A stretch of 63,022 nt of DNA, the filler included, from Sluysia triapertura (taxonomy: Eukaryota): NCBI GenBank assembly GCA_046118255.1. It is 5 parts of 5 records of this genome, joined end to end, with 100 filler letters (N's around TTAATTAATTAA, not from the genome) between each part and the next. Parts side by side here need not be neighbours in the genome. Positions count along the whole stretch, not along the records: positions 40,673 to 51,530 come from JBJNIA010192517.1; positions 51,631 to 63,022 come from JBJNIA010185180.1; 3 more parts are not named here. One strand, 5' to 3'. This document shows positions 10,745-63,022 of this stretch, piece by piece (the stretch's first letter is position 1; each line of letters opens with the position of its first letter). Below the pieces are notes generated by a model that saw nothing but the letters and a program-made list of their open reading frames with translations, had not been told where the DNA came from and made no database searches. The position numbers and the translations under genes are program-made.

Positions 10745-10949
10745 ATTTAAATTTTATAAATAAAACTAGTAAAACTAGATGTTATAATGCCTTATTTTTT
10801 AATTTGTTAAAAGTAATGATGATTCTCATAATTAACTTAATAAAGAAATGTTGTAATTACAATAAGTTTTTATAACGAATTTTAAAGAATCAAATTTAAC
10901 AATCACTTTTAGTTTAATAATTTCAAATGATTATAATTACTTTCTTATT

Positions 10950-13394: not shown

Positions 13395-13494
13395 NNNNNN
13401 NNNNNNNNNNNNNNNNNNNNNNNNNNNNNNNNNNNNNNTTAATTAATTAANNNNNNNNNNNNNNNNNNNNNNNNNNNNNNNNNNNNNNNNNNNN
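13395..13494. other. Assembly gap with TTAATTAATTAA six-frame-stop spacer (also 27608-27707, 40573-40672, 51531-51630; plain N gap 52103-52273)
   Basis: Identical 100-bp N44-TTAATTAATTAA-N44 blocks. Confidence 0.97.
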
Positions 13495-20816: not shown

Positions 20817-21079
20817 TGTGGTGATTCAAACCCTCATATATTACAATCACAAAAGAAATAAAGCTACTAAATAAACAACAAACTTGCATTTTAAAATTAC
20901 TTTTGCTTACTACTATCACTAATGCTATTTAATTATTTAATTATTATTAATTTCTATTATATTTTATTGTTAATCATATCATTAATATTATTATTGTTAT
21001 TACTACCATTATTATTATTATCATTATTATTATTAACTTAAATATTATTTATTTATATTATTATCACTATTATCAATAC

Positions 21080-21118
<39 letters not shown>

Positions 21119-24100
21119 TACTATTATATTTATTTATAATAAAAATACAAAATAAATTAATTAAAATAAACTTAAATTGGTTTCAGGACAAAATAATTTT
21201 TGGTTACTCAAATCAATTTTTATGCTATGTTTGTATGATTAGTCATAATGACCGTCGACATGGTACTAATAATAATTACACGATACTCTTAATATTAATT
21301 CACTTAAATTTATAAACTATTTTCGAAACTCTTCAATATCTAGAGATTACCGTTAGTCTGACACCATAAAACTTTTGCTTATTAAAGTTTTCCACTTTAC
21401 TTAGCTTTATGCCTCCTGCTTCTACAAATATTCATAATAACTGTAAAATATGTAAAATATTTTAAAAACTTTTTAAAATTAAATGACACAATTCAACAAA
21501 TCACCAAATTTCCATTTCAACATACGTAATCACCTTTAATCTTTTCAAAATCTCTAACCAACCTCTCAAACATTATTATCCACAATTGTAATAACCTCAC
21601 CTTCATATTCACTCAAACCACATCAGTCACATATATAAACTAAACGTACAATATAAAACACATTCCAAAACCACCTAATAAAATCCTCATTCATACTATG
21701 ACAACTAAATTCCAAATAAGTTCCATTAATAATAAGCACAAATTCAACACCACACGCAACAAAACTACATTTTACTTCAGATGAAGGTCCAGAATTTCCA
21801 AAATAGATACCTTTCCACCTACAGCATCAATGAAGAAACAAATTCTCGTGATACAAAATCCTAAAAATCACCTCTAAAATTAAAAATACCAACATTAACG
21901 TCTTTCACACTATCCAAACGACAAAACCGGCATCCTCCATTTATCTTTTCACAAGAATGTTTGGTTCTTGCATAATTCTCAACCTCTTCGTAGCAGTCGC
22001 ACCTTCCACAACATTTTCTACCCGGTAGTAGTAGAAACCCTACAGACATTAACATAGAGAATAAACTAGATAATGCACAATCTTAAATTAATGCCACAAT
22101 ACTCTTACCATTTTTTCCTCGATAATAGTAGTACTCCCAACACTTGGTGTATCGTTGAAGCAGATCTTAAAACACGTGAAATAAAGGAATTCTGCAGCGT
22201 ACTTTTTCCATTTAGGCCACAAATCCTTAAGAAAAAAGATGGTTCTATCAGGACATGCGGTGACTGTCGAATGCTAAATAATCCGTGCTGCTTCTTACCG
22301 ATATTTTACACCGTTTTCGCGACTACGTATATCGACGCCATCATAGTCGCGTCAAAAAATGTAACATATAGTGATCATCTGAACAAAATTTCCCAAAGAC
22401 TTGCGGACAATAAACATACTAAAACCGAAGAAATAAACATACAGGCGAAGATTGCATCTCTAGACCTAACATCTCTGCTGACGACACTGAACCTTTGCCA
22501 AGCCGCATAGAGTCCATAAGGAACTTTTCGCAACCTCTAACTGATATCCAAATGTTAAGCTATTTACCCAGACTTTTTCAAACGCTATCTCAAGTAATTA
22601 AATGGACCGAAACCTCATTACAAGCTTTCCAAGAGATTAAGGGTTCTATTGCCCAGATGCAAGATTTGGCCTTTCCATTTCCAGACATTCATCCATAACT
22701 AACTATTAACGCATCAAACACGGCATTAGATGTTGTTCACATCAAATCAAAATGACGTTCCCATACCCACAAAATTATATTCCTATAAGATACTCTGCTT
22801 TTGTTTGCGAACTCTTGTATATTTTCAATAATACACTACAGATATTTACTGATACCAGCGAAGTTTATCTTCAGGACTAACCGCAAGCCCTTGTTCACTT
22901 TTTCCATCGCCACAATAAGGGCACATTAGTTTTGATATTTAACACACCTGGGACACGAAAACGTGGTTGCCGACATGGTTATCACGGGTAAAGATTAATA
23001 GCATTAAGGTTTCACAATGGAAGATCTTCCTGGTAATCCCACTTCTGCCGAATATATTAACGTTTTAGAATAACAGCATTACTACGTGAAAGTATCTACA
23101 TCGATCATCAGCTTTTAGGAATTTCATGTCCAACCTCAGCTTTCGAATACATACATAACACAACACACCGTGGAGCTAAAGCTACGTATCAATTACTGCA
23201 TTTCAAGATCGTGTGGCCTTTTATGCACAAAGACTGCTTAACTTGTTAGTTCGTCAAGATTGTACGACATACAACATTGTCATTTACCCACAGGCCATTT
23301 ATATGGATATCTTTGATATCCTTCCATAGCATAGATTTTGAGTCTGAACTATTTAACAGTTTATTAAAACATCTGGGAAGTTATAGACTCAGAGCTACCG
23401 CCTATTACTCACAATCTAGCGGGATTATAAAACGATTCCTTAGAACGCGAGAAACCTCTCTGCGTTCCATTTCTTTTAAATTCTACCATTAATATTACTG
23501 GTATGGAGAAATATCAACAGTATCAACACTAAGATGTCCAACGAGGTATTTTCTCCGCATCTTCGAGAATATTTCTTCAACCTTGATGCGGTGCCAGCTC
23601 ATAACGATTCCTTACGTCTTTTTTGTCCTAAAGGAATTGCCGACAAAAGAATATGTTTGATTAACGCACGAAAATCCAACTTCTTTACAACTACGTTACT
23701 CGGGTCCCAATAAGGTTCTTAAAATATATTCCGACAACCAAACAGCAACTATTTCTGTCATAGGGCACTCGTGGACGGTAAACTGGTGCAAATTAAAGCC
23801 AGCACGACAACCAACTCACTCATTCACGTCTGTTTATCACATCGGCTTCATTCAATGATGCCCAACAATAATAAAATACAAGTTACAACAACAGATCAAA
23901 TTCATAGTAAACATTCAAGTTACAGTCCCATATTAATCATTTTGTCCTGCGTTTCAAAGGGGGTTGTGTGACGATTCAATAGAAATAAATAAATAACTAC
24001 TAAATAAACAACAAACTTACATTCAATTATCCATCATCTTACTTATTACAACTTTTACTATTACTATTTTTACTTACTAATATATTACTGCTATAACTAT

Positions 24101-24180
24101 TTCTAATTATTATAATTAGAATAATTATATTAATTATAATAATAATTATTAATTTCTCTTGTATTCTATTATCAATATTA
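20817..24180 (+). mobile_element. Two-LTR Ty3/Gypsy retrotransposon, heavily deleted and degenerate
   Basis: 5' LTR ~20817-21247 (TGTGGTGATTCAA...GTCATA) and 3' LTR from ~23968 (TGTGACGATTCAA) share CTACTAAATAAACAACAAACTT; PPT AAAGGGGG before the 3' LTR; pol motifs KKDGSIRTCGDCRMLN, YIDAIIVAS, WTETSLQAFQEIK, INASNTA, YSAF..ELL, GHENVVAD, H..HRGAKAT..VWP..C..C, FESELF..TAYYSQSSGIIKRF. Confidence 0.88.
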
Positions 24181-24185
24181 TTATT

Positions 24186-24250
<65 letters not shown>
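24180..24250. repeat. (CAT)n microsatellite; (AAT)n tracts also at ~16812, 21080, 27538, 45232, 52470, 53739, 59232
   Basis: Directly visible trinucleotide runs. Confidence 0.95.
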
Positions 24251-27607: not shown

Positions 27608-28099
27608 NNNNNNNNNNNNNNNNNNNNNNNNNNNNNNNNNNNNNNNNNNNNTTAATTAATTAANNNNNNNNNNNNNNNNNNNNNNNNNNNNNNNNNNNNN
27701 NNNNNNNTAAATTTCATATCAACATCAACAATTCAGCATTAATAAACATAATAACCACGTTATTGTTATCATTATTATTTCTTTATCCTTATCAATCTTT
27801 CCTTCTATTCTTTTGTTTTTCCCCAATACTACACAATATATTGACCTCTTATAATTTATAAAACAATATTGATTGATAAATAATGGAAGAATTATATTAC
27901 AATAAGAAATCATCATAACGAAACGTAACCTTAATTGATTATCAAATGAAACTTAATGATGGGCTTTATTCAACACAATCACCAAAAATAGATAAAAATA
28001 CTGATTCAAAACACACAGAAATCATACTTATTTAGAATGTGACAATACAATTTACTACAATTTACAATTTAATACATTTGCAACTGTTATGATACAACA

Positions 28100-29811: not shown

Positions 29812-30618
29812 ATGGACTTTACTAAGGAACCCAAAACTTTGGAAACTGAATATGTTCATAAAGTTTATGATTCTATTGCAGAACATTTTAGTGAAACTCG
29901 ACATTCAATGTGGCCCAAAGTACGGCAATTTATTGAACATCAGTTCTTCTCTGATGACGATTCTAGGAAATACTTGATTTGTGCTGATTTTGGTTGCGGG
30001 AATGGAAAATATTTGGCCGGTAATTGGAGTAAATATTGCTTATGGTTAACAAGTGATCCTTGTTTTGGATTTTGTGATATAGTTCGTCAAAAATATGATC
30101 AATTTCCTTTTATTGACCCAGTTCAAACTTCATTGTTACAATTACCTTATTGTAAAAAAGGAATTTGTGATTTCTGGATTAATATTGCAGTGTTACATCA
30201 TCTTAGTACCGAACAAAGGCGATTAAAAGCATTGAAAAATATGGTAGAGATGCTTAAGATTGGTGGATGTGGATTAATATATGTTTGGGCTAAAGAGCAA
30301 AAAAGAGGCAATGAAAAATCACACTACATATCGATTAATAAAAATGAAACAAAATTTGAGTGTGTTACTGGACTTGCAAATTCAATAGATCAGTTACAAA
30401 TTCATCAAAATAGAACAGAATTTGCTGCAACTGATATGTTAGTGCCTTGGAATAAAAAATGTAGCGATGAACTATTTGTAAGATACTATCATTTGTTTAT
30501 CGAAGGTGAATTAGAAAATCTATGTCGACAAGTTAATGGCGTGCAAGTTTGTGACTCATGGTATGATTCCGGTAATTGGGCAGTAATTATTAAACGAATG
30601 GAAGTATTAAATATTTAA
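29812..30618 (+). CDS. ALKBH8: tRNA wobble-uridine (mcm5U) methyltransferase, ALKBH8/Trm9-type methyltransferase domain
   Basis: LETEYVHKVYDSIAEHFSETRHSMWP, ADFGCGNGKY (SAM motif I), IAVLHHLST..RRLKAL, LIYVWAKEQ, IHQNRTEF..DMLVPW, RYYHLFIEGELE, GNWAVI; ATG at 29812, TTTAG acceptor at 29794-29798. Confidence 0.9.
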   Translation: MDFTKEPKTLETEYVHKVYDSIAEHFSETRHSMWPKVRQFIEHQFFSDDDSRKYLICADFGCGNGKYLAGNWSKYCLWLTSDPCFGFCDIVRQKYDQFPFIDPVQTSLLQLPYCKKGICDFWINIAVLHHLSTEQRRLKALKNMVEMLKIGGCGLIYVWAKEQKRGNEKSHYISINKNETKFECVTGLANSIDQLQIHQNRTEFAATDMLVPWNKKCSDELFVRYYHLFIEGELENLCRQVNGVQVCDSWYDSGNWAVIIKRMEVLNI

Positions 30619-39829: not shown

Positions 39830-40240
39830 TAAAATACTTTTCCATTCTTTTGGTGAAAATGTACATTTATAAAATTTGCTTATTTTGTAAGATTGTTCAA
39901 AAGGAAATATAAAAGATGCATTATAAAAGTACATTATTGAGAATAATCCAGATTTTTTGAAAAATATCTAAAATTATGGATGGTGAATATAAGTATCGAC
40001 TAATGCTACCGTAGGAGCATCGTATTTGGAGCAGAGAGATCTTGCAAAGTGGTTGATATATAATAATGCTGATGTCAATTCAACTTCTGATAAAGTTAAA
40101 ACATGAATTAAAAGAAAAATTGGTTAAACTTAGAAAATTTCAAAAATTAAAATTACTCATATAATAATTTCATAATGGTTATTAAATATATTAAATTAAT
40201 ATTAACTACAATCTTTGTAAAAATTAATCAATATTTATTA
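39830..40240 (+). pseudogene. Decayed ankyrin-repeat plus coiled-coil accessory gene following an A/C-rich LTR-like stretch (39540-39720)
   Basis: CSKGNIKDAL*KYIIENNPD and GASYLEQRDLAKWLIYNNADVNS are ankyrin-like; then KHELKEKL..FQKLK shared with 6670-6815. Confidence 0.55.
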
Positions 40241-40979
40241 TGTAAGGTTGTCAATTTAAATTTTTGTATAAAATTTATATTTTATATTTTGTGCATTTAT
40301 TAAAAATTATAAATATTATAAATATTAAAATTATTAATAATATTAAAAAAATTATAGATATTATTAAAAATTATAAAAATTATTATTAATTAAATAAAAA
40401 TTAAAATTATATCAACAATTATAAATAAAATTTAATTAATTTAAATTATAAAGAAAAAAGAAAACAGACAATTTTGTTTTAAATAACTAAATTTTTAATA
40501 TGGTTTCTTTATAGTATATAAGAAAAAATAATAATAATCACAAGTAACAGACAAGTAACAACACAAGAAGAANNNNNNNNNNNNNNNNNNNNNNNNNNNN
40601 NNNNNNNNNNNNNNNNTTAATTAATTAANNNNNNNNNNNNNNNNNNNNNNNNNNNNNNNNNNNNNNNNNNNNAGAAAATTTGTGGTAAATAGTATTTGTT
40701 AATTAAATTTCGAAGGATTTTAATGTAAGTTAGAATTTTCATTTATTCTGTAAATATATTGAAATTTAGAGGATTTAAATACTCAAGAAAATTTACATTA
40801 TAAAATTTGTTTCAAACAATTGTTTATCTGTTTAGGATCCACTACTTTAAATTGAGTTACCAAATATTATATGATGTTATGCTTGTAATTGGGTAACTTT
40901 TTTAAAAATTTGTTTTTATTTGTAATTCGTATACTAAAATTGATCAAATCGGTATTACTAATAATAAAACACGATTTAA

Positions 40980-46863: not shown

Positions 46864-46995
46864 TGTTTAGGATATAGGCCCAAGCTGCTATTTGGTGTAA
46901 TTGAATAAAGTAATATAAAAATTGTTAGCTCAGTGGGTACAGCATCGAGAGGTCCCGGGTTGATTCTCGGTCAGTCCATTTTATGAAGTCTAACA
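46864..46995 (+). mobile_element. tRNA-containing short LTR-like unit (copy A)
   Basis: TGTT...TAGCTCAGTGG (A box)...GAGGTCCCGGGTTGATTCTCGG (B box)...CCATTTTATGAAGTCTAACA. Confidence 0.7.
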
Positions 46996-47644
46996 ATATA
47001 ACTGAAATTTTATTAAAAGCTTAAATTTGCTGATTTTTTGAGCTTACGAAATGGGTTCACGTTAGTCCATAACTTATCACGTCTAAAATCTAGATTTGCA
47101 AAGTAAACTAAATGTTTTACCTTTAAAATCTTATTAAGTAAGTATATTTTGAAAGAGAAATAACTACCACCTTAAATTATAAAGAAAAATATTAAATATA
47201 AAACAATAGATAATATCTTCAACAAATTTGTTGATTTTACTTGAAGAATCTCAATTATTTAAGTATTCGCTAGATCAAATATAAATTTTCAATAATTCTC
47301 TTATTAAATATCAATAATTATTCACCCCAAAATTAAGCTCTTGGAAATCAAATCAATATCAACAACACAACAATTTACTGGCTAAATAAAAATTAACTAC
47401 AAATTAGTATTATTATAAATCTCTATTAAGCAGTACTAAAAATGATTAAAATGAAGAGATTAGCAATAACGTTTATAATAATCTCAAGGATATAACAATC
47501 TATCAAAAGAAACCAGAGGTGACGCAACACTAAGAAAAATATTAACTATTACTAAATATAAATTTTTCAACATAATCGGACAATAATAACTTTGACAGTT
47601 ACATGGTATAGACTGTCAAACTTTATTAGATACAAAATACAAAA

Positions 47645-48060
47645 ATTGATTATCTATTATTTTCTTTTGTTCTACTCAATCTACTTTTACTTACATTAAT
47701 TCTCACATTAAAATAACACTTATTATTATTGTTAACATACATTAAAAATGAGTAATTTAATTTTAGTTTTCACAATTTAATTGATTTCTGGTTTTAAGCT
47801 TCTTATTCTCAAACAAGCCACTCTACACACATTTCAAACTCACTTCTTGGTCCTCCTCTTCCATAGCAATCATCTTACATTCATTTCATTACATTTGCAT
47901 CACTCTAAGTATAAAAAATTAAACATTCCATAATTAAAAATTAATTAAAATTTGACTTTGCTCAATAATAAGGCTTTCCCTGCATGAACTCGGTCAAACC
48001 ATACCTTCATCGAAAGGTCTTTTTAAAGCAAATGCATACACAGTTTCAAATTTAACATAG
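47645..48060 (-). mobile_element. Repeat with gag-like remnant; second copy at 51288-51530 (+)
   Basis: The reverse complement of 47645-47870 aligns with 51288-51530 (gaagtgagttt...gtaaaagtagattgagtag..aaaagaaaat); LKDLSMKVWFDRV is gag-like. Confidence 0.6.
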
Positions 48061-51000
48061 CATTCCGCATTCAAAAGTTATTTACAAAAACGCAATTTTT
48101 GTAAAGATTTTAAATATTTTATTAAAATTTTAAAGATTTTAATTAATTAATCTATTTTTAGACTTAATTTTATTTTAAATTTAAAGGTTTTATTAAAGTT
48201 CTAAAGTTATTTAGTAATTTATAAGGCATTTTATGTTTTCACCTTCACCTCTCTGATTCCTTTTTCTACTTCACGTTAATTATTACTATATTAGATTTAT
48301 TCTTAGTACCAGTAACAATGATTTTATTTCTCAAATATTTCAAAGATTTTAAATACTTTATAAGATTACTAAAGGATCTCAAATGCTTATAGATGCTTCA
48401 AGAATATTTAAAAGTTAATAAGATCTTAAATGATCTAACGTTTTACAAGTTCAAAGGTATCTTAATGCTTCTAAAGTTTTTTCAAGTCCATCTCAAGCTT
48501 CCACAAGATCTCAAACCCTTATATAGGTCTTTGGAAATCCAAGGTATTCTTTAACTGTTAAAATTATTATAGATGTTTTCTTTATCATGATTCTAATTTC
48601 AACAATGTTTATAATCTTCAATCCATCACTTGTATCAGTTTTTCCTCATTTTATGATTTTATATATCTTCATTCATTTCCAGGTCCATAGTTGGACAATC
48701 CCAACAATACGATTGTAACAATAGAAATAAAAATAGTTTTTGTAAGTTTAATATACCCAGAATTTACATAATCAATATATAAAATCGATCTTTATATTTT
48801 TTAAACCGATTCTACGAATCGGTAGATCCTGATTAATGAGGATTGAATGTGCAAGACTAGGATTGTAGGCGAACAAATAAAATTATTAATTATTTATTGG
48901 TAGGTTAAGTAAGTAATTTTCAAAACATCACCATATATGTAAATACACACAAATTATTCAATTGATTTTAATTGTAAATACACAAAAAATAAAAATTATC
49001 GATTTTTATGCACAAATTATTGATTAATGTTTAAGAATTTTTAATACAAATTATGAATTAATGAAAATTATTTTGATTAATTAAGTAATAGATTATATTA
49101 TCTTAAATTTTAATAAATTATATTTGAATAACGTAAAGAATAATAAATTATTTAAATTGTAATAATAAATTATATTTTAGAAATGCAATGAAAAGTATAT
49201 AAATATTTATTTATATTTATCTTTTGTTTAAATTTCGGCCTTCAAGGTCATGTTTGTAATATAATAGACTTTTCACACAAAAACATTTATGATAACATTT
49301 CTAAATCTTTAATACGTCTTGACAAAAACTTTGAGTGCAACATAATCAATTCTTCGACGAAAATATTCAATTGAAATTACTTCACTTTATATATTGCATC
49401 GTTAGTTTAATTTACATAAGTTTTCGCAATACTTAAGATTGTATCTATAAAATATATGACAAATCAATATCTTATATTTTTTCAGCTACTATTTAAGTAA
49501 AGTAGTTAAGTAAACTATTATTAAAATAATCCACTTAAATTGTTCATCCATGATTTATATTTATTATTTTGGTATAAATTTTTTATTGAATTGTTTTTTT
49601 TTGTATAATAAAACTTCATGACTTAAAGTCGTTCTTAATCAAGACAAGGAGAAAAGACAAAATATAATTAAAAACTAACCCTCATAATTAACTTAAGATC
49701 CGATATTTTTCGGTTTCTTATAAAACGAAACCTAAGTAAAATCTTCACTAAAATCTTTTTTAATTAATTTCTAGTTAAAACTACCTTTTTAACGGTTTCA
49801 TTTAAACTCGAAACCGAAGTAAAATCCAATTATATTAAAATCTCCTTTAGGATCACTATACCAAAGATCCATAGTAAAATATTAACATCAATAATAAGAG
49901 CACATAGTTTCATGGAACATAAACATTAAACTTGCTTTTATCTTGCTTTTAAATCCAACCGCTAGCCCTAACTGGTAAGACTAGATATGTTGGTGAACTC
50001 ACGTTTACTTTTATTCTCGTCTAGCAAAGCGAAACAATTATATATATGTATCATACCTGTAAGGTTGTAAAGTAACATTTTATTTAAGATTGTTGTTTGT
50101 ATTTATTTATATGTTATTATAATTTATTATTTATTTTATATATATTTATTAAAAAATTTTAAAATTGTAAATATTATTAAAATTGCTAAAAATTATTATT
50201 CTTCTTTAAAAAATTGTAATTACAATAAAAATTATAAATAAAGTTTAATTATTAAAATTTAAAAGAATCTTCTAGATTAAATTGTTTTAATAAATTAAAT
50301 TTATAAATGTGACTCTATAGTCATAAGACGAATCGCCATTACGATTAATTGATTAAATGATTAATTTTTAATTTTATCAAACAATGTAATCACAAATATG
50401 TGATATAAAAGGATAGCCAATTTAATTGCACAAATAAAAGTATTAGTTTCATCAATCCAAGTATCCACAACAACATTTCGATTCAAGATATTCGATTTAA
50501 ATCATAGAGACAGCATTTTTACCAAATTTTAGATTAAGTAGTAAGTTTATTTTAAATAATTTGTAGACTGGTAAGAGTTCAAATATCTACTTAAAATACT
50601 TGATTTTCCGTTGGTAATTCAGGCCAAATATAAAATATTACTAAAATCTAAAATCATTATCCTTTCGTTGGTTCGTAAGGCCAATTACAAAATAAGACAA
50701 GGTAGAGCGAGTCTTCCTGTTAGGTCATTTGATTGAGGAATAAATATTATTATTATCATTATTTATTAAATTGAGTCATAATTTGTAAAGTTTTAATATA
50801 TTTAGTCTTATATTTTAGCTTTTAGTTAATACATTTTCAATAACGATTGTTAATTTTGATTTGTATTAATATTTAACGATTTTTTAAGATAAGTTAATTG
50901 TAACAATATTCTATTAAAATATATTGGTACTCTTTAGGATAATTAATTACTTTCCTTGATAAAGTATTCACATAAAGTTCTACTTAAACTTAGATACAAA

Positions 51001-51639
51001 CGCACGCGTTGGTCACTGTTATTATTGCATCTTAACACTTAAGTTACATACGATATTTGTCTAATAACATTACCTACGATTTGTCCTTTATAGTTTACAT
51101 TGAAGTAAAAAGTAGTTTTATATCGTTATTCTTTAGGAATACCTTCACGTTACTTAAAGATACGCCATTGGTAAGTCGTATACTGTATGCGGACTCTAAA
51201 TATTAGTTTATTTTGCTTTTAGGTAAGTTTTAGAGTTTAAAAGTAAAAAACCCAGCACACCCAAAAGGAAAACATCCTATGAAATGACTGCTATGAAAGA
51301 AGAGAATCTGGAAGTGAGTTTACATGTTTGTAAAGTGGTTTGTTTAATAGTAAACATTTTTCATTAGAAAATTGGATGTGAAAAATCGAAAATCAATTAA
51401 ATTCTAAGAAGTGAAATTAATTCATTTTTTTATGTATGTTAGCAATATTGTTGATTGTTATTTTAATGTGAGAAGTAATTTAAGTAAAAGTAGATTGAGT
51501 AGAGTAAAAGAAAATGATGGTTGATAATAANNNNNNNNNNNNNNNNNNNNNNNNNNNNNNNNNNNNNNNNNNNNTTAATTAATTAANNNNNNNNNNNNNN
51601 NNNNNNNNNNNNNNNNNNNNNNNNNNNNNNGTTTAAGCA

Positions 51640-51939
51640 AATAAACTATTGAATAAATATTATTAAATATTAGGTATTAATTGTTACAGTGTAGTGTAAA
51701 ATAAAGGGTTCGAGAGTATTGAATAGATTATTTCGAATGTCTTTGTTATTGGGTAACCGCGAAAATCGAGTACATTTTTTGGTGGATTAGTTGATGTAAA
51801 TTGGTAGTGTTGAATATAATTGTGATTTAGATGTTGTGGAACTGAATGTATGATTGTTAGGTATGATGACGAGAGAAAGGAAGAAAAAGAGGTATTAGTT
51901 TGTAATAAAATTTAGTGTTTATCAAGGTTGGCCACTACA
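51640..51939 (-). mobile_element. LTR end of the strand-biased family, truncated by a gap
   Basis: Minus strand TGTAGTGGCCAACC...ccacaacatctaaatcacaatta...aatttacatcaactaa, matching the 33051 copy. Confidence 0.7.
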
Positions 51940-52327
51940 CCGTTGCTATCTCCCTACACGTAATCCTTACTACTTGCTATTTCGTAGGTTCATGAATTCC
52001 GCATTCATTTTCCTTTATATTCCTACTAAATTTAGAGCATTTTAAGATATTTATTTTAAAGGTACTGAGATCTTTCTGATATATATTAGATTGTTTTATT
52101 TANNNNNNNNNNNNNNNNNNNNNNNNNNNNNNNNNNNNNNNNNNNNNNNNNNNNNNNNNNNNNNNNNNNNNNNNNNNNNNNNNNNNNNNNNNNNNNNNNN
52201 NNNNNNNNNNNNNNNNNNNNNNNNNNNNNNNNNNNNNNNNNNNNNNNNNNNNNNNNNNNNNNNNNNNNNNNNNTAATATCAATAATAATAATCATAATCA
52301 TAATAATGATAATAATAACAATAATAA

Positions 52328-52468
52328 TATTAGACTTCATAAAATGGACTGACCGGGGATCGAACCCGGAACCTCTACCTGGGCAGTTCGATGCTCTAGC
52401 ACTGAGCTATTTTTATTTTTTTATAGTCAATTTTAGCAAATGGCACTTTAGGCCTTCTTACCCCAACA
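52328..52468 (-). mobile_element. tRNA-containing short LTR-like unit (copy B, best-preserved tRNA part)
   Basis: Minus: TGTTGGGGTAAGAAGGCCTAAAGTGCC...TAGCTCAGTGCTAGAGCATCGAACTGCCCAGGTAGAGGTTCCGGGTTCGATCCCCGGTCAGTCCATTTTATGAAGTCTAATA; inside (AAT)n, ATAA on both sides. Confidence 0.8.
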
Positions 52469-52500
52469 ATAATAATAACATTAATAATAATAATAATAAC

Positions 52501-52543
<43 letters not shown>

Positions 52544-53624
52544 TTAATTTGTCACAATTATAACAAATGAAAATCATCAAACAAAAAATTTAGTGATACA
52601 AAGTTTATTTGATCTACATAATTGTTTTGAAGGCAACTTTTGAACTACACGAATACTTTAGATAATAATAATAATGATAATAATAATAATATATTAAAAT
52701 ATTTCTTTAATAATTCAGTCTTAAATTGTTTATCTTTCTTCTTGATTTGTATATGTTTATTTTACTAATTACATAAATAACTCTATTTTGTTTAAATTTA
52801 TCTAAATTCATCTAGTTTGGCAGATAAAGCAGCGCTTTTATCAAAACTCATTATATTAAGTTAATTAATAACTTCAATAAAATGTTCGATCAATGGAATG
52901 TACCGTGATTTTCTTAGATCATTGAGCTAAGATGTTTCGTTTGTTTTGAAGTGTCAATCAAGCGCATTATTGATTTATAGAACGTAGTTTCTTTCGACTT
53001 CCCGGTGTTGAATCATAATAAAAATAAAATTATAATAAATATATTAATTGATTGTACATTACTGTTTACAATAAAATGAGTAGTCAGTAGCAGATAGAAC
53101 ATTTTTTGATATTTAAATATTTTTGTAAATACTTCATAATGATTGGATAACATTATTCAATATTTGATTGTTTTATTTTTGAAACAAACCATCTATAATT
53201 TTATTATCACTGCGTATTCAGTATAGAATATTATATATTAAATTCATATTCAAATATTTATTATTCTTGCATTTTTATTTTTGCAATTGTACATACAGTT
53301 GCATCATTTATAACACTGTGGTGTCTTGTGTTGTATGAGTCATGCATTTTTATGTTGTAGTTGAGTAGGGTTATTATAGTACTTAAATATGTAAATATAC
53401 ATAGATAATAAAGGATAAAAAATGACATTTAGATTCAAAATATAATTTCTAATGATTTTGTTACATTTTTTATACCATAATATAATATAAAGAAAATTTT
53501 AAATTCATTTGATAATACGAATGTACTTTTCTTAACAATTCATTGTTGTTCTTAATACTGTTTGTAAATTATTCACAAGATTTTACAATAATCATTGCTT
53601 TCAATGTTTAAGGTGTTCACACTA

Positions 53625-53693
53625 ATCCGGTACATTTCCGGGACAAAAGTAAATCGGAACAGTGTACTGGAACCCGGGACGTCTGGTCACCCT
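53625..53693 (+). mobile_element. 3' end of a hAT (Blackjack/Tip100-like) element
   Basis: CCGGGAC subterminal repeats ending CGGGACGTCTGGTCACCCTA, the reverse complement of the TAGGGTGACCAGACGTCCCG-type terminus. Confidence 0.65.
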
Positions 53694-53738
53694 ATAGCTG
53701 AATATCCCTGCAAAATTTTTATAAATCCAATAGGCTAA

Positions 53739-53801
<63 letters not shown>

Positions 53802-54204
53802 TATTTCAAATTTAAGAACAATTACAAAAACAATAATCAATAATCATTAAAATTGTTTATACATTTAAATTTAGACTTAATCCGATATATAATGGCAATA
53901 ATTGAAAATGCTAATTAATAAATATTAATAATTAAAAATTATTTGAATAATATTGCAATAGTTTTGAAAAATAAATAATAAATCTAATAAATAAATAATA
54001 AAAATAATAATATTTAATTATGTGGAATGTTTTTTTTAATTTATCTAACAATTTTAGTATAGGAATTCATATATATTACAAGGGGTAATGGAAACCTTGC
54101 CTACTTAAACTATTGTTATGAACAATCTTATGGGACGAATTTTTTATTCATAAAAAATAATTCTATAGTGTGATTCATGAAAAATTTCATAAATATTAGA
54201 TGTA

Positions 54205-54628
54205 CAGTGGTGGCCAAATTAGTAGACGGAAACAGGGAAAATATGTTTTTAATTTGTTGGTTCATTAAAAATTGGTCGTTTGGGAAAATATGGCAGAATG
54301 AAGAAAATATCAGTGAGAAATGATAGATATTTGGTGACACTTTCTAGGATGAATCGTAAAGCTACCATTACGACTTTGCAGAAGCAGTTAGAGACTTATG
54401 AACGACCCAGAAGAAAGCTTAAGTCGATACCAGGGATGTTGGCATGGAGTCAAGTGTGTTTTACTGACAAATCATCCTTTCAAGGATTGGATGTCATGAG
54501 TTTAATTCTGATTGTGTCTTAGAAACTGTGAAACATCCAACTTTTGATTAATAGTTTCATAGTATCCTTGAAAAATGTTGAATTTTATCACAAACATGGC
54601 CTTTAGACTAATAATTTGACCACCACTA
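54205..54628 (+). mobile_element. Internally deleted Tc1/mariner element
   Basis: TIRs TA-CAGTGGTGGCCAAATTAGTAGAC / AGACTAATAATTTGACCACCACT; remnants RNDRYLVTLSRMNRKAT..LQKQL and WSQVCFTDKSSF. Confidence 0.8.
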
Positions 54629-57600
54629 AGGTTAAACTATTATCATAAAACTATATTGAAGTTTATTCACGAGCTTCATTGAGGTTAAATAATTTTACCT
54701 AGGGATATATAAGTTTACTTAGGATCCCTTTAAATAGATCTTTTTACTAAAAAACACTAAATTAATCATTTAATTATACTCCGTTAAAATAAATTTAAAA
54801 GTTAAACACACAAGGATAATTTCTTGATGAGTATATGAAACAAAATTTAATACTTTTTATAAATAGTGTCTGATAATTTTAGTTGTTATTAATTTTACAA
54901 AAGGTTTTACTACGCAACTAATTTAAACAGTGTTTAAACTGTATAGTTTACCTGGATTTTATCCCCACTAAATTAAAATTGTGGAAAAATCTTTAATAAA
55001 ACAAAACTAAGATTCAATTATAAGAATTACAAGATTTAGTATCTATTAATGCCAAAAAACGAAGTTTTAAATCTGGTTTTTATCTTGTAAAAATTATTTA
55101 TGTCTTAGCTCTTATGAAGTTTTTTTATGGCCTTGAAAATGTACTTAAACAAAAGTTATTATTATATTATTAAATATTATTATACTCATCAATTATACGT
55201 ACTTTCAAATCCAAAAGTATATAATCCTAAAAATCAATATGTTTTAAATACAAGTCATGTTGAAATAAGATTTGGAAACATACTGACCAATCACTTTTTA
55301 TAATACTATCTAGGAATCGTTAACGTGATGATTTATTTAACATTTTCTGTATATTTAATAGAGAGATCATCTTCTTCCAAATTTGACCAATTTGTTTTTC
55401 TATTTATAGTAAACATTCACAATAAACTTCTGTGTGTAAATAACTACAAATTTTAATAAAATATTATAGAGTTAAGAGATCAATCGTAGTACAAAATAAT
55501 TTGCATAATAAATTTAGATGTAATCCACACAATGAAATAATAACGAAGTGTCAACTGTAAATTGTAACTTAGAGTTTGTATATCCTTATTATTATACATC
55601 TAAATTATTTGAGTTTGTGCTTGTTTAAATTTAGTTTCCTTGACGAAATTATTGTATTTAATTAATTAATTTATCAGGATATAAAATTTGTTTATGAAAT
55701 TTACTAACGCTAACGTTAGATTAAGTAATAACATTATAATAATTATAATAATAATAATAAAAGTCTTGATTAATCTAAAAATAAAAAGTACTTTAGCAAG
55801 TACCTATCAAACAAAACGTTAAGAAGAAATTTAAGGTTATATTGTTATATTGAATTAAATTGTTAATTAATTCCTAAAAAACTAATTTTTATCGTCCTAT
55901 TTTAAACAAGTACTTAAAATAAGAAAATACTAATTTATATAGTTATAAACTAATTAAAATCCATCGAATTTATTTATTTTTTGAGCGTCATTTTAAAAAG
56001 GCGTTAAACTTTTATTATTATCACGTGCTATTTTAAAGAAGAACTTAAAATCTTTTGTTAATTAACATAGTAAATTATAATCTTGTTTTAGCAAATATTG
56101 CAAGCACAGATATTTAAACTTGGTGCGCATAATTACACATTTGAACTCCATGAGTTGATTTTGATTTTTTTTATTCTATAACCTATTGACAAGCTCTTAA
56201 GCATGTGAGACTTGGATCACATGTGAACTTAATTGTGATTGGTGGCTTTTATCTTATTAATATCAAATAAGATTTTGCATCGAAATTATGGTTCCTTTAA
56301 GAAGGCTTACTAATGAGGAATAAAAATATAATCAACTGAATTCAACGAATAAAACTCATGAAAATGTATTCAATTAAATAATTGTAATTGAAAAGAAATT
56401 GATTGGACAAAATTATTATAATTGGCTTTAGAAACGAATATCTATTTCAAATATATTATTATTATTATTGTGCATTGGGTTTTGATTAACTTCGATCTTT
56501 AAATGTGATATGTTACTCCGGGTTCGCCTACGTTCTACTATTTACATTTAACATGACGCATTCGTAGGGTTTTGTATAAGATTTAAGGGTTTATACGTAT
56601 TCTGTGGATCTTTTTATGAAACGTCCTGGGAAATATCGATTACTGTAACTCGTAGTTGTCAAACTCAAGTTACTTCTTAATTATAATTTTTTACTAATAA
56701 AATTAATTTTTTTACTTAAACGAGTAGCTTTATTTTGACTCTAACTCATCCTTGAACATTTTAATATTTCTTAATTTAATTCGTTTGAGAACAACTTTTT
56801 TATTTTGTTTTACGTCTTTAAAAAATGTATAATTTGTAATTATTTAGTCTTTAACATTCCTTTTGGACTGTACTCATCGAATTTAAAGAATTTATATATT
56901 TTTTGACAACTTGTGGCTACTCACTATTAAACTTAATATCTTTTACAACAAAAATGAAATTTCTTCTTTTAAAAATAACTACAAAAGTTTATGCTAAAAA
57001 TTTAAGTTTACAGAACTGAACTATAATATAAGTATATAAAAATATTATTTAGAAGGTTTACTTCTAAAGTATCGTTTAATCGTTTATGAATAAATTGTCT
57101 CCAGCTGAAACTAGAGAGTAGAATAATTAATGAATTCACTTAGATTTTATGTCAGAACTTATAACAATAAACTTACAAAAAATTTGGAAAGGTTTTTTAT
57201 TTATTAAGAATCATTTCGTGGCAATTGACGACATTTGTTTAAAATTATGTTTGAAATTATCGATTTATCAATAATATATATGACTATTGAAGAATCACCA
57301 ATGCAGTATTCAGAATATATCAAAAAAAATTGTAATCTAATTTGTCCAAGAACGGAACTTTAACCAAATTGATGGCGTAATAACTTTATCCGACTAGAAA
57401 TGTATATTTTTGTGTGTTATTGGCTATTTTTTCATCTATTTATACACTGAATTTAATTTAATTTAAAATTATATTTTATAAATTTATTTTATATTTTATA
57501 AATTATATTTTATAATTTTTTATTGTAAATAACACGTTTTCTTTATTATCTTTATTTAGATAATCCATGTATTATTAATAATACTTATTATTAATAGTAC

Positions 57601-57992
57601 TTATTAATAATTATTATTAAATTCGTCTTTACTATTTATTATTATTATTATTATCATTATTTTATATTTTCAGACAGTTTTTTTGGATCATTTCTCACAA
57701 TTTAAAAGTCTTATTATTTCCCTTTAAACCTAATGACACGTTTTTGAATATATATAAAAATAAAATACATTTTCGTTATTAAATGTATAAAATAATTTTT
57801 TTATTGTTTAAAATATTGTTTTAAATCGCATTTTCAAAATTTGTACATCAATTTTGAATGTGTGTAAATTAATTTTATAATGAAATAATTATTAATTCTT
57901 ATTTAAACGGTTTATCACAAAAGAAATAGTTATAATTGATGAATAAAATATTAATTTTTTAGTTTAATACTATTTTTATGTTTCTACATCTT

Positions 57993-58224
57993 TGTTAGAC
58001 TTCATAAAACCTTTCTGTTTTGTTTTATTATAATCACTTATACTATCATTATTCTTTAGATCTGTACCCCCAACATATCTCACTTAACTCAATTGTGTTT
58101 GTCCTCAAACAACTTGTAAATCATTTAATTCGATATGTAGGTTCATCGAACCTGGGCGCAGTTCGATTCTCTGACAATTATACTATCATTATTTTAAATG
58201 GCACTTTAGGCCTTTATCCCAAAA
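57993..58224 (-). mobile_element. Decayed two-LTR TRIM-like copy of the tRNA-LTR family
   Basis: Minus strand: LTR piece 58224-58135 (GGGATAAAGGCCTAAAGTGCC...GAATCGAACTGCGCCCAGGTTCGA), ~60-bp spacer ending in purine-rich AAGTGAGA, second LTR TGTTGGGGGTA...TTTTATGAAGTCTAACA (58075-57993); TATACTATCATTATT is present in both pieces. Confidence 0.55.
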
Positions 58225-58263
58225 AATTTATTTTTTCAAAACGATTAATAGTGAAAAGTGCTT

Positions 58264-58410
58264 TGTTGGGGGGTAAGAGGCCTAAAGTGCCTTTTGGTAT
58301 ATTTTGAATATAGTAATATAAATTGCTATACGGGGCTGATAGAGCATCGAACTGCGCAATGAGAGGTCCCAGGTTCGTTCCCCGATCAGTCCATTTTATG
58401 AAGCCTAACA
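58264..58410 (+). mobile_element. tRNA-containing solo-LTR-like unit (copy E) with 4-bp TSD
   Basis: TGTTGGGGGGTAAGAGGCCTAAAGTGCC...AGAGCATCGAACTGC...GAGGTCCCAGGTTCGTTCCCCG..CCATTTTATGAAGCCTAACA flanked by GCTT (58260-58263 and 58411-58414). Confidence 0.8.
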
Positions 58411-58959
58411 GCTTCTTTATCGATCATAACACTCAAAGTCGATGCAGTTAATCCTATTACGAGACTTTAACTCTACGAACACAGCAAATATTGAAAGAAA
58501 ACAACAATGAACTTCAAAAGAAGAATAAAAATATAATTAAATCATTAAAAAATTCAAAAATCAATGCAAAACTTTCCCTATACATTTTATTTGTTACTTA
58601 TTCTAGAATAACAATAATATTGAATATTGAAAAATTAATCATATATAATCCTATTGGGATGTTCGATCTGGTGGTGTGTTTAAATTTAAGTGAAAATTTC
58701 TCCTCAATATTTCGGGGTCCTTTACTAAAAATTGATAATACAAGTGATTTTAAGTGGAAATCAAAATCGCCTTAATAATACAACAATTGACTTTTTCATG
58801 GAACCAAAATCCGATGATTAAATCCTTTGATGAACTTGCTCGATCCAAATTGTAATAGCAGAATTTTCCAAAATGGCTGACTGATAAATGTGGTATTAAG
58901 ATGACTGAAAAATTAAATGGCTGACTAAATTAAATGGCGATTTTCATTAAACTGATGAA

Positions 58960-60420: not shown

Positions 60421-62181
60421 ATGTTCATATTACCATTACTAATTTCTTTACTAATAAATATTAAATCAATAATGGCAGTTAGTGGCTGTACTGTTATGTT
60501 GAAAAATCCAAATTCAATATTTAAACATGCAATTTGTCAATTTCAGACGTCACATTTAACTAAAATACCGACAGATTTGCCGCCAACATTAATCAGTCTT
60601 GACATTTCGAATCAAAACATCAATTCTATTGATCAGTCACAATTTCAACACATTTATCAATTAGAATATTTGAAAATTACGTCTTGTGGATTATCAGTTA
60701 TCGAATCAGCCACGTTTACTCCTTTATCGATGCTATCTAGTTTAATTTTACACAACAATTCTTTAGTAATACATTTAAACTATAACATTCAATCATATAT
60801 ATTTGAACCGTTAGTTAATCTGAAATTACTGGATTTATCATACAACTATCTTCAAGTAATACCGAAGCGATTTTTTTACAATCTCGGTAATACTTTGCTT
60901 CATTTAAATTTAGCTCATTCAAAAGCACCGATCAGTTTTACTCCAGAAACCTTTGATAATTTACGAAAACTACAAACATTAGATTTATCATCCAACAATT
61001 TACTGACATTAGATCGCAAATTCGAATATCAATTTGAAAATATGTTGAAATTACAAAATTTATTACTCTATAATAATCCATGGCGTTGTGATTGTGATTT
61101 AAAATGGCTGGTTTTATGGAAACAAAATACTATGGTATCATTAGCTTCTGATCCTAGTAAAATCAATTATGATAGATTTCCAGCACCAAAATGTCATTCG
61201 CCGTTATCAATGAAAGGTATCAATTTATTTAAACCATTAACTGAATCTATTGGACCATTTGAATTTCCGTGTGCACCTGTTTGCTTAACTGCATCAAAAT
61301 CATATCAAATTTCATTAGGTACTAATTTAACTTTGTCGTGTACTTTTAAAATTTATGGTCAACAATTGCAAATACAATGGCTATTTAATGACTCATATAT
61401 CGGTGACGATAATATCAAATATTATATTGATGAATATAAACAAAAATTACATACAATATTAACTATATATAATTTTACCGATAAATTAATAGGTATTTGG
61501 AAATGTAATGCTTTATTTGATGGTTTATTTATTGGTACTAATTTTACAATTATATTGAAATCAAATTCTGATCAAACCAATATTAGAAATAATTTGTTTT
61601 ATCAAACAACAAATTCAACTGGATCTACAAAAATAATTGCATTTACAATTATTGGATCTATGACTTTATTTATTTTAATAATTCTATTTATAGCTATAGT
61701 ATATAGATATTTTCATTCGAAATCATCAGTATTTAAAACTGAATACGGTAATCACATACGATTAGATGATAAAGCATTATTTATAGAATTATCACCGAGT
61801 AAACTGTTTTCATTTGATGATTTTAGTAATTATCAAAGTAATAGTAATTTGTATGCTAATAATAATACTATTAATTCAGAACATGGTGGCGGAATATTAT
61901 GGTCATTTATGAATGACTTAGATTCTAACATTGAACCGTCAATTTTATCTAATATTCCTACACCATCATTGGATCATTCTCATGTAATTTTAAATCCATA
62001 TTTAAATAATCATAATAATGATGCTTTATCTAATACAATAATAACACGAATGCCAACATCTAAACCTTGCCCAATTCATAGTGATTTAGAATCTGAAACT
62101 GTTTCTTTAACTAATTCATTGTTACGGCCTTGTCCAGTTCACGGAGATTTGTTGACTAATATTTCTAATTCTGATAATTAA
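60421..62181 (+). CDS. Single-exon LRR + Ig-domain type I membrane protein (LIG family, Kekkon/LRFN/LINGO-like)
   Basis: Signal peptide, LRRNT (LTKIPTDLPP), ~6 LRRs, LRRCT (NNPWRCDCDLKW..C..P), Ig domain (LTLSC..IQW..GIWKC), TM (IIAFTIIGSMTLFILIILFIAIVY), cytoplasmic tail; first ATG at 60421. Confidence 0.92.
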   Translation: MFILPLLISLLINIKSIMAVSGCTVMLKNPNSIFKHAICQFQTSHLTKIPTDLPPTLISLDISNQNINSIDQSQFQHIYQLEYLKITSCGLSVIESATFTPLSMLSSLILHNNSLVIHLNYNIQSYIFEPLVNLKLLDLSYNYLQVIPKRFFYNLGNTLLHLNLAHSKAPISFTPETFDNLRKLQTLDLSSNNLLTLDRKFEYQFENMLKLQNLLLYNNPWRCDCDLKWLVLWKQNTMVSLASDPSKINYDRFPAPKCHSPLSMKGINLFKPLTESIGPFEFPCAPVCLTASKSYQISLGTNLTLSCTFKIYGQQLQIQWLFNDSYIGDDNIKYYIDEYKQKLHTILTIYNFTDKLIGIWKCNALFDGLFIGTNFTIILKSNSDQTNIRNNLFYQTTNSTGSTKIIAFTIIGSMTLFILIILFIAIVYRYFHSKSSVFKTEYGNHIRLDDKALFIELSPSKLFSFDDFSNYQSNSNLYANNNTINSEHGGGILWSFMNDLDSNIEPSILSNIPTPSLDHSHVILNPYLNNHNNDALSNTIITRMPTSKPCPIHSDLESETVSLTNSLLRPCPVHGDLLTNISNSDN

Positions 62182-62269: not shown

Positions 62270-62833
62270 TTATTGACTAATCTGAAATTCTGATTGATTT
62301 GTATTTTCTTGTTCTGTATTTACATTATCTTTTACTCTTTTCTGTGCTAATTTTGCCTGATGTTTCCAATCTTGAATAAAATTTGTAAAAATAAATCCAA
62401 TTGTTGTTATTATTACCATAGATATCAAAAGACCAATCCAAATTCCTTTTATATCTAAAGATGTCGCAAAACCTAAAGAAATACCAATTGGTTGTCCAAG
62501 AACATAATAAGCAAGTAAAACAAATGCTATAGTAGGTATTTGTCTTCCACAACCTCTTAGTGCACCTGAATTGATAGTAGAGAAAAAATCAAACAGTGAT
62601 TTAAATATCATATATGGAAAAGTTTCAGTAGCCAGATTCTGAATATCCTTATCATTAGTGAACAACTTAGCCGCATAGTTACTAAGACCTAGCAGCAGAG
62701 AGCAACATATAATTCCATAAAGTAATGTTAAGATCATGCCGCATCGGTAGGACAGTAATGCGCGTTTCCAATTGTAAGCACTTAATGCTTCTCCTACACG
62801 AATATTCACAGCTACACCTAATGCAAAACAGAC
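62270..62833 (-). CDS. MATE (SLC47-like) multidrug/toxin extrusion transporter, C-terminal part
   Basis: LGVAVNIRVGEAL, LFTNDKDI, SGALRGCGRQ, AYYVLGQPIGISL, GIWIGL, DWKHQAKLAQKRV; 5' boundary uncertain. Confidence 0.88.
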   Translation of the reverse strand, partial: VCFALGVAVNIRVGEALSAYNWKRALLSYRCGMILTLLYGIICCSLLLGLSNYAAKLFTNDKDIQNLATETFPYMIFKSLFDFFSTINSGALRGCGRQIPTIAFVLLAYYVLGQPIGISLGFATSLDIKGIWIGLLISMVIITTIGFIFTNFIQDWKHQAKLAQKRVKDNVNTEQENTNQSEFQISQ

Positions 62834-62949
62834 TTGAATTAAATCATCTCTACTAAATTGGGTTTTGAAATCGGAATAATTCGTTCTACATTTTTCTAAC
62901 GATTGTAACTGCTTCTTTGCTTCAATACTTTCATCATCAAATGATAAAA

Positions 62950-63022
62950 ATGAAAATAAACAAAAAAATAGAAGGATAGATTAGTGATAAGGATAAAAGG
63001 AATAGTAATAATGATAACAATT
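62950..63022 (-). repeat. Dispersed repeat fragment matching 27760-27820
   Basis: Reverse complement attgttatcattatta...tttatccttatca...tccttctatt...ttgttt aligns with 27760-27820. Confidence 0.6.

What the first reader, a model, noticed from the sequence alone, without database searches (positions are those of the whole stretch)
46864..58410. Short LTRs carrying a tRNA-derived Pol III unit (tRNA-TRIM family)
Seen: five related pieces (46864-46995, 52328-52468, 57993-58075, 58135-58224, 58264-58410). The complete units are ~130-147 bp, bounded by TGTT...AACA. They contain an A box (TAGCTCAGTGG/CTAGAGC), a B box (GGTTCGATCCCC), a tRNA-Ala/Cys-like T arm ending CCA and an immediate TTTT terminator, but lack the 5' acceptor strand. 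Copy E has a 4-bp TSD (GCTT). Established: TG...CA ends and 4-bp TSDs are LTR/Gypsy-integrase hallmarks, not SINE ones; small-RNA-bearing TRIMs are known (plant Cassandra with 5S; Helenus-type with tRNA-like LTRs). Inference: an uncharacterised tRNA-LTR family here, probably Pol III-transcribed and mobilised in trans by Gypsy elements.
Basis: partly seen in the sequence, partly recalled or inferred. Interest (0 to 1): 0.78.

Follow-up and report, generated by a model that had tools for sequence, protein, structure and literature searches.

The report
Helenus-type tRNA-bearing miniature retrotransposon
These are pieces of an abundant, very small non-coding jumping element whose end repeats carry a tRNA look-alike; this kind (Helenus) was described in 2024, so it is a new family, probably in a flatworm, and not a new kind of element.

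Summary
The five pieces are real and related. A, B and E are solo LTRs. Contigs of public run X1 show the spacer is itself highly repeated and joined to LTR ends at both sides. LTR ends are fixed at TG…CA, with unrelated flanks and no tail, so this is not a SINE. Copy E has a 4-bp TSD (1 of 3 informative sites). Correction: the 5' acceptor strand is present in E and in the family, and the 'CCA' is not an encoded tail. The layout matches Helenus/TRIMp3 (Kojima 2024): tRNA-like unit near the LTR 3' end, then a T run, and a 60-bp internal part as in Lingula. Two host proteins point to a flatworm, a phylum absent from that paper. Copies probably number in the tens of thousands (rough). Open: the primer-binding site (no TGG in the window copy), the helper element, and Pol III transcription, which needs read-through of a T4. 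Verdict: new member of a known kind.

The parts
46864..46995 (+). Solo LTR, copy A. A box at 46926; 5' acceptor strand and most of the anticodon region deleted; altered B box at 46958; T4; TG…CA ends; no TSD
52328..52468 (-). Solo LTR, copy B, inside an ATT microsatellite. Best-kept A box (52409) and B box (52366); Rfam tRNA 24.8 bits (gathering 29) at 52352-52410; ends TG…TA
58136..58224 (-). 5' LTR (piece D) of a decayed two-LTR element; internal deletions, decayed 5' TG, 3' end CTACA
58076..58135 (-). 60-bp internal part between the two LTRs. Highly repeated in run X1 and joined to LTR ends in other contigs; no TGG at its start; purine-leaning 3' end; no T4 on the sense strand
   Evidence: (tables 2, 5, 5c)
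57993..58075 (-). 3' LTR (piece C) of the same element; both termini intact, tRNA-like part deleted, T4 kept
58264..58410 (+). Solo LTR, copy E. Acceptor 5' strand 58333-58339, D loop deleted, T arm, acceptor 3' strand 58386-58392, T4 at 58394-58397, 13-nt tail to CA; head-to-head with D, 39 bp apart
58260..58263 (+). Left copy of the 4-bp target-site duplication (GCTT) of E
58411..58414 (+). Right copy of the 4-bp target-site duplication (GCTT) of E

Best explanation
[quoted passage not shown] SHOWN: each LTR is TG, then about 70 nt of A-rich upstream sequence, a tRNA-shaped unit (paired acceptor stem, A box, B box), TTTT, 9 nt more, ending CA. Two LTRs flank a 60-bp non-coding internal part. 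The window holds three solo LTRs and one decayed two-LTR copy, and the family is highly repeated with fixed ends. INFERRED from LTR biology: solo LTRs arose by LTR-LTR recombination; copying is by reverse transcription with the RT and integrase of an autonomous LTR element in trans. INFERRED and less sure: Pol III starts at the tRNA-like unit of the 5' LTR. Most transcripts stop at the T4 as ~75-nt RNAs. A minority reads through U5, the internal part and the 3' LTR's U3 and stops at the second T4, giving a ~300-nt RNA in which the tRNA-like unit is the terminal redundancy (R). Helper most likely Gypsy-type (about 55%; Copia about 30%). Confidence: two-LTR TRIM about 0.9; Helenus-type about 0.85; Pol III-made template about 0.55.
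For:: 3,825 of 6,252,256 contigs of run X1 were laid on 57950-58489 at 80% likeness. Summed depth is 0-18 in the flank bins, 31 in the D-E gap, 485,331 at E's 3' end and 144,122 in the spacer (ratio 3.4). Kojima's Table S3 has LTR:internal counts such as 5575:2618, 1124:402 and 529:144. Loose ends: 142 contigs stop matching at 58410 with flank agreement 0.43 (no shared tail); 112 contigs run on past 58222 with CA (TG on the sense strand) and then agreement 0.45. Joints: LTR 3' end to spacer start (58131/58408, 2 contigs); spacer end to an LTR 5' start (58222/58089, 58219/58072, 58215/58071), one with a G-rich tract GGGGTGAGATG before the TG. The 4-bp TSD at E (chance 1.1% per site) fits animal Helenus. 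Helenus consensus LTRs in the supplement have the same order, and many have a T4+ run just after the tRNA-like unit. Lingula families have 58-60-bp internal parts and 127-132-bp LTRs. A Gypsy-order remnant lies in the same window. On the sense strand the spacer has no T4, and A, B and C have none before the terminator.
Against: No primer-binding site could be shown. The window's internal part begins without TGG, while the animal Helenus PBSs of Fig. S2 almost all contain TGG. The contigs crossing this junction stop matching at 58129-58131 and their junction letters were not printed. Only 1 of 3 informative sites has a TSD; the two-LTR copy has none. The window copy's PPT is poor. T4 terminated human Pol III very efficiently in vitro (PMC3141230), which argues against much full-length Pol III RNA, though the same paper finds leakiness in vivo. 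The lack of T4 is weak evidence: 870 of 2,072 60-nt and 148 of 912 135-nt window segments also lack it; E has two extra T4 runs and D one at its decayed 5' end. Ends TGTTG…TAACA look more like the fungal, Copia-mobilised Helenus than most animal ones (by eye, same supplement calls). Run X1 may be the window's own source, so it is not independent. Tables were cut: 6 of 234 loose-end places, 15 of 21 joints and 8 of 3,936 pieces were shown. Contig depth is not a copy number.
Confidence: 0.82

Rival explanations
1. A two-LTR TRIM whose replication template is made by Pol II (from U3 or from flanking promoters). The tRNA-like unit is a captured passenger or yields only short, separate Pol III RNAs ending at the T4.
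For: T4 was a very efficient terminator in vitro (PMC3141230 passages). The T4 lies 1 nt after the tRNA-like unit, before the internal part. The only flatworm TRIM found in the literature searches, ta-TRIM, is not described as tRNA-bearing in the passages read.
Against: Acceptor pairing, A box and B box are kept in the family. The same layout with a T run recurs across Helenus families of several phyla, which suggests selection on the cassette. In vivo read-through of Pol III terminators is common.
Confidence: 0.1
2. An ordinary tRNA-derived SINE, with TG…CA and the TSD as chance.
For: tRNA-like A and B boxes, a terminator and high copy number; tRNA-derived SINEs exist in flatworms (Sm-alpha, PMC2770079 passages). 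2 of 3 informative sites have no TSD.
Against: About 70 nt of conserved sequence lie upstream of the tRNA-like start, with a fixed TG boundary (112 contigs). The 3' end is fixed with no poly-A or simple-repeat tail (142 contigs, agreement 0.43). A repeated spacer is joined to the unit on both sides.
Confidence: 0.03
3. A dispersed tandem repeat or MITE-like DNA element that contains a tRNA-like piece.
For: The termini are short imperfect inverted repeats (TGTTGG / CTAACA). C keeps both ends around an internal deletion. One contig joins an LTR 3' end closely to an LTR 5' start (58229/58410).
Against: Direct repeats flanking a short spacer, solo units with a TSD, and a G-rich tract before the second repeat are LTR features. 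Tandem arrays are known for Cassandra and LTR-11_DR.
Confidence: 0.03
4. Functional tRNA genes or their plain pseudogenes.
For: Complete acceptor stem with a G3:U70-type pair (alanine identity mark; recalled). 28 nt of B are identical to an ARAGORN-called tRNA-Ala(GGC) in metagenome locus L017 (1 of 17 loci, selected by that very motif).
Against: ARAGORN finds 0 genes in the window. The Rfam score is 24.8, below the gathering score of 29. No canonical anticodon arm forms in B or E. The unit is embedded in fixed TG…CA repeats.
Confidence: 0.02

Closest known systems
Helenus (TRIMp3), Kojima 2024, PMC10886601. Read: main text parts 1-5 of 6; supplement parts 1 and 5-11 of 11, plus one motif search; parts 2-4 (fungal sequences) not read
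   Same: Two short TG…CA LTRs with a tRNA-like unit (TRGCY A box, GGTTC B box) close to the LTR 3' end, often followed by a T run; short non-coding internal part (43-621 bp in animals, 58-60 bp in Lingula); many solo LTRs; 4-bp TSD in animals; unit unlikely to be a working tRNA.
   Different: Host probably a flatworm: Table S1 lists six animal phyla and 'Platyhelminth', 'flatworm' and 'planarian' occur 0 times in the text. No shared sequence beyond the B-box region: 5 of 6 motifs had 0 hits in the supplement (line breaks can hide hits). No TGG-type PBS in the window copy (Helenus-1_MLe also shows none). TGTTG…TAACA ends resemble the fungal families. Rough copy number above the paper's largest (5,575 LTRs, counted at a stricter 90% rule, so not directly comparable).
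Cassandra (plant TRIM with 5S in the LTR); PMC7215508, passages only, and the summary in PMC10886601
   Same: Pol III promoter and terminator inside each LTR; transcript from the 5' LTR unit to the 3' LTR unit; tandem arrays.
   Different: 5S-derived rather than tRNA-derived; plants only; R of 18 nt there versus the whole ~75-nt unit inferred here.
ta-TRIM of taeniid cestodes; PMC4558846, passages only
   Same: Flatworm TRIM; TG…CA LTRs; mostly 4-bp TSDs (52 of 57).
   Different: 198-bp LTRs, ~590-bp internal part, tRNA-Leu PBS; no tRNA-like LTR unit in the passages read.
tRNA-derived SINEs (SINE2), e.g. Sm-alpha of Schistosoma; PMC2770079, passages only
   Same: tRNA-derived A/B boxes, high copy number.
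   Different: SINEs begin at the tRNA head and end in a variable tail; here the head is internal and both ends are fixed.

Membership tests
Helenus (TRIMp3) | Two LTRs around a short non-coding internal part, whole element about 1 kb or less | tested here: met
   D-spacer-C spans 232 bp (decayed). The spacer is repeated and joined to LTR ends on both sides in other contigs.
Helenus (TRIMp3) | tRNA-like sequence with A box (TRGCY…YGG) and B box (GGTTC) inside the LTR | tested here: met
   A box in A and B; B box in B; acceptor stem in E; Rfam tRNA 24.8 bits; family loose ends carry acceptor plus A box.
Helenus (TRIMp3) | Fixed TG…CA LTR termini | tested here: met
   A, C and E have both; B has TG…TA; D has a decayed 5' end. 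Family: 142 and 112 contigs end sharply at the two termini.
Helenus (TRIMp3) | Primer-binding site just after the 5' LTR | tested here: inconclusive
   No TGG in the one, decayed window copy. Contigs over the junction stop matching at 58129-58131 and their letters were not printed. Host tRNA set not available.
Helenus (TRIMp3) | Polypurine tract just before the 3' LTR | tested here: inconclusive
   Window copy only purine-leaning; one contig has GGGGTGAGATG before the TG (table 5c).
Helenus (TRIMp3) | 4-bp TSD (animal families) | tested here: inconclusive
   1 of 3 informative sites (E, GCTT); chance 1.1% per site; B uninformative.
Helenus (TRIMp3) | Pol III transcription (expected; not validated for any Helenus, per the paper) | not testable with these tools
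   No RNA run was available to lay.
SINE2 | 5' end at the tRNA head | tested here: not met
   About 70 nt of conserved sequence with a fixed TG start precede the unit.
SINE2 | 3' poly-A or simple-repeat tail of variable length | tested here: not met
   Fixed end at 58410, flank agreement 0.43 over 142 contigs.
Functional tRNA gene | Complete cloverleaf with anticodon arm, passing tRNA finders | tested here: not met
   ARAGORN 0; Rfam below gathering; folds of B and E lack a canonical anticodon arm.

The most novel reading that the evidence does not exclude
An independently born flatworm TRIMp3 that reached tens of thousands of copies and does not use a normal 3'-CCA tRNA primer. It would prime from a half-tRNA (Copia style) or from its own tRNA-like unit, while still making 4-bp TSDs. 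Its LTR also appears to have grown outward from a shorter one: an inner TGTTAGAC, the exact reverse complement of the LTR's last 8 nt, sits just before the tRNA-like unit in family contigs. This would be a new variant of Helenus. It would also be the easiest case for testing how a Pol III transcript gets past its own terminator.
Probability: 0.15. Interest if true: 0.62.

Novelty: new member of a known kind. Interest (0 to 1): 0.38.

Why it matters
It probably extends Helenus/TRIMp3 to a seventh animal phylum and supports repeated independent birth of tRNA-bearing TRIMs. No Helenus has been shown to be Pol III-transcribed (PMC10886601). A family this abundant, with a T4 right after the tRNA-like unit in both LTRs, gives a sharp prediction: short ~75-nt RNAs plus rare ~300-nt read-through RNAs ending at the second T4. 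In practice such repeats are easily mislabelled as SINEs or tRNA pseudogenes. The kind of element and its likely mechanism are already in print, so the surprise is moderate.

Tried and rejected
No whole genome is held, so no genome-wide table of termini and TSDs was possible. No RNA holder was listed. A 25-nt pattern of the LTR 3' end gave 0 hits in metagenome contigs. A 17-nt pattern gave 2 viral contigs that match only the pattern. A 22-nt B-box/acceptor pattern gave 17 metagenome loci; none shares the upstream LTR part or the spacer, and 1 of 17 is an ARAGORN tRNA-Ala. Self-priming test: the start of the spacer can pair with B's B box over 8 nt with 2 G·U pairs, but copy A gives 8-nt pairings elsewhere by chance, so it is not significant. 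Folding energies are unremarkable (z from -1.48 to +0.62 over 6 sequences). Absence of sense-strand T4 is only suggestive. The LRR-Ig protein was useless for host placement (best hits 25-35% identity). The careful tree did not finish; only the quick tree is reported. The RT-like ORF at 22070 alone had no Pfam or PDB match. Earlier notes: none for this genome, this sequence, or flatworm plus TRIM words. Literature: no paper held all of flatworm/TRIM/LTR retrotransposon/tRNA-like (0 papers); 'Helenus' plus 'retrotransposon' from 2024 listed 4 papers (listing only for three of them); searches showed no flatworm tRNA-LTR element in their listings. Repbase, Dfam and subscription journals were not searchable, so a deposited consensus cannot be excluded.
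Full report
Observation. The five pieces are at the stated places. BLASTN inside the window links A (46864-46995 +), B (52328-52468 -) and E (58264-58410 +) at 70-79% identity, E-values 5e-11 to 1e-26, and picks up C and D as shorter matches. A, C and E run TGTT…AACA; B ends AATA; D has lost its 5' TG. E is flanked by GCTT on both sides, exactly 4 bp. Such a match occurs at 671 of 61,735 random positions (1.1%). A has none, and B's TTAT match lies in an ATT microsatellite. ARAGORN finds no tRNA. Rfam gives one tRNA match, on B, at 24.8 bits against a cut-off of 29.

Corrections. Each copy has its own deletion in the tRNA-like unit. A and B lack the 5' acceptor strand, but E keeps it (58333-58339) and it pairs with 58386-58392 in the fold. 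So the 'CCA' is two paired C's plus the discriminator base. The T4 begins 1 nt later and is followed by 13 nt to the end of the repeat.

More copies. No genome was held. One public run, X1, holds the stretch; it may be the window's own source. Laying its contigs on 57950-58489 at 80% likeness placed 3,825 of 6,252,256 contigs. Summed depth is 0-18 in flank bins and 31 in the gap between D and E, but 485,331 at E's 3' end, about 80,000 over the upstream parts of C and of D, and 79,000-144,000 over the 60 bp between D and C. The contig of this locus has depth 14.9. Dividing by single-contig depths of 13-31 gives very roughly 16,000-37,000 LTR ends and 4,600-11,000 spacers, ratio 3.4. The tool warns that this is no copy number, and the figures depend on how diverged the window copy is. 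Five pieces in 63 kb is of the same order.

Ends and joints (6 of 234 loose-end places and 15 of 21 joints were shown). At 58410, 142 contigs stop matching and go on into unrelated sequence (agreement 0.43): a fixed 3' end with no tail. At D's decayed start, 112 contigs supply the TG and then diverge (0.45): a fixed 5' end. Loose ends in 84 and 115 contigs carry the acceptor strand and A box that the window copies have lost. Two contigs join an LTR 3' end to the start of the spacer. Three listed contigs join the end of the spacer to an LTR start, one with a G-rich tract just before the TG. It has no TSD left.

Host. The window is animal DNA, mostly 19-30% GC per 2 kb with one 38% bin. An ALKBH8-type methyltransferase (29812-30615) has best hits of only 41-43%. 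In a quick tree of 81 rows it is sister to the cestode-plus-trematode clade (SH-aLRT 96, but on a long branch of 1.52; the careful search did not finish). Its top Atlas cluster is mostly Platyhelminthes (same protein, so not independent). A MATE fragment has a single hit under 1e-15 among 978 longer candidates, a Schmidtea protein at 45%. A flatworm is likely (my estimate about 0.8) but not proven.

How it most likely works. Shown: structure, fixed ends, abundance, solo LTRs. From established LTR biology: solo LTRs come from LTR-LTR recombination, and a 60-bp internal part cannot code, so RT and integrase come in trans. Inferred: Pol III starts at the tRNA-like unit in the 5' LTR and mostly stops at the T4. 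Rare read-through to the second T4 would yield a template whose terminal redundancy is the tRNA-like unit. Against this, T4 was very efficient in vitro for human Pol III; for it, leakiness is common in vivo (PMC3141230, passages). The spacer and the upstream parts of A, B and C have no other sense-strand T4, but 870 of 2,072 background 60-mers have none either and E has two, so this is weak. A helper candidate class is present: a decayed element at about 20817-24250 shows RNase H-like and integrase zinc-finger matches in Gypsy order (E 0.0012 and 0.001, both below cut-off), but its LTR starts (TGTGG, TGTGA) differ from this family's. The single 4-bp TSD favours Gypsy by Kojima's rule; the TGTTG…TAACA ends look more like the Copia-mobilised fungal families. 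The primer site is unresolved: no TGG in the window copy, junction letters not printed, and a self-pairing of 8 nt that chance also gives.

Comparison. Kojima 2024 (PMC10886601) defines Helenus as TRIMs with a tRNA-like sequence in the LTR, with PBS and PPT, 4-bp TSDs in animals, found in six animal phyla without flatworms. Its consensus LTRs show the same order of parts, often with a T run after the unit, and Lingula families have nearly the same dimensions. Three defining features are met here, three are inconclusive, one is untestable and none failed. The paper itself holds Helenus to be born several times, so membership is structural, and no sequence kinship beyond the B-box region was found. 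SINE and tRNA-gene tests failed. Earlier AI notes record Helenus-like LTRs in fungi and a diatom; they are leads only and show that new hosts turn up often.

Verdict. A real, abundant, two-LTR tRNA-bearing TRIM: a new member of a known kind, probably the first noted in a flatworm within the searches made (Repbase and Dfam not searchable). Interest 0.38. It would rise to about 0.6 if the family proves to lack a normal tRNA primer site.

Noticed in passing
window 20817-~24250 (+): Decayed LTR retroelement: direct repeats 67% alike (20852-21112 / 23987-24244), TGG at 21178 just after the left repeat, G run at 23956 before the right one; RNase H-like and integrase zinc-finger matches in Gypsy order, below cut-off; many stops and frameshifts.
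   Followed up: partly
family contigs; loose ends at window 58018 and 58175: An inner TGTTAGAC just before the tRNA-like unit is the exact reverse complement of the LTR's last 8 nt. It may be the relic 5' end of a shorter ancestral LTR; whether copies start there was not testable.
   Followed up: partly
window 58224-58264: Solo LTR E sits head-to-head 39 bp upstream of the two-LTR copy. Three LTRs within 420 bp could hint at insertion near existing Pol III boxes, as with Ty3 (recalled); one case only.
   Followed up: no
joints 58229/58410 and 58221/58390: Single contigs join an LTR 3' part closely to an LTR 5' start, possibly tandem or nested copies.
   Followed up: no
window 17617-18174 (-): Tc1/mariner transposase remnant in two frames (DDE_3 E 0.0015, HTH_Tnp_Tc3_2 E 0.00012; below cut-offs).
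   Followed up: partly
window 9496-10744 (+): WASH complex subunit 4 N-terminal match (E 1.4e-10) followed by ORFs separated by in-frame stops; pseudogene or short introns.
   Followed up: partly
window 29812-30615 (+), 60421-62178 (+), 62270-62980 (-): Uninterrupted ORFs for a stand-alone ALKBH8-type methyltransferase, an LRR-Ig membrane protein and the 3' part of a MATE transporter; all are highly diverged from database proteins.
   Followed up: partly
window 13395-13494, 27608-27707, 40573-40672, 51531-51630: Scaffold gaps written as 44 N, a 12-nt all-frame-stop linker, 44 N: assembly artefacts, not biology.
   Followed up: yes
window 6668-6812 / 40092-40235 / 4947-5109; 1-117 / 48591-48706; 47656-47873 / 51284-51518: Three other AT-rich dispersed repeat families (73-89% alike), not related to this element.
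   Followed up: no
L017 551-623 (+): ARAGORN tRNA-Ala(GGC) whose acceptor stem and T arm equal those of this family; selected by the search motif, so probably coincidence.
   Followed up: partly
L003, L005, L006, L009, L010, L015, L016, L019: Metagenome loci with the same B-box motif followed by a shared downstream stretch; they look like an unrelated SINE-type repeat.
   Followed up: no
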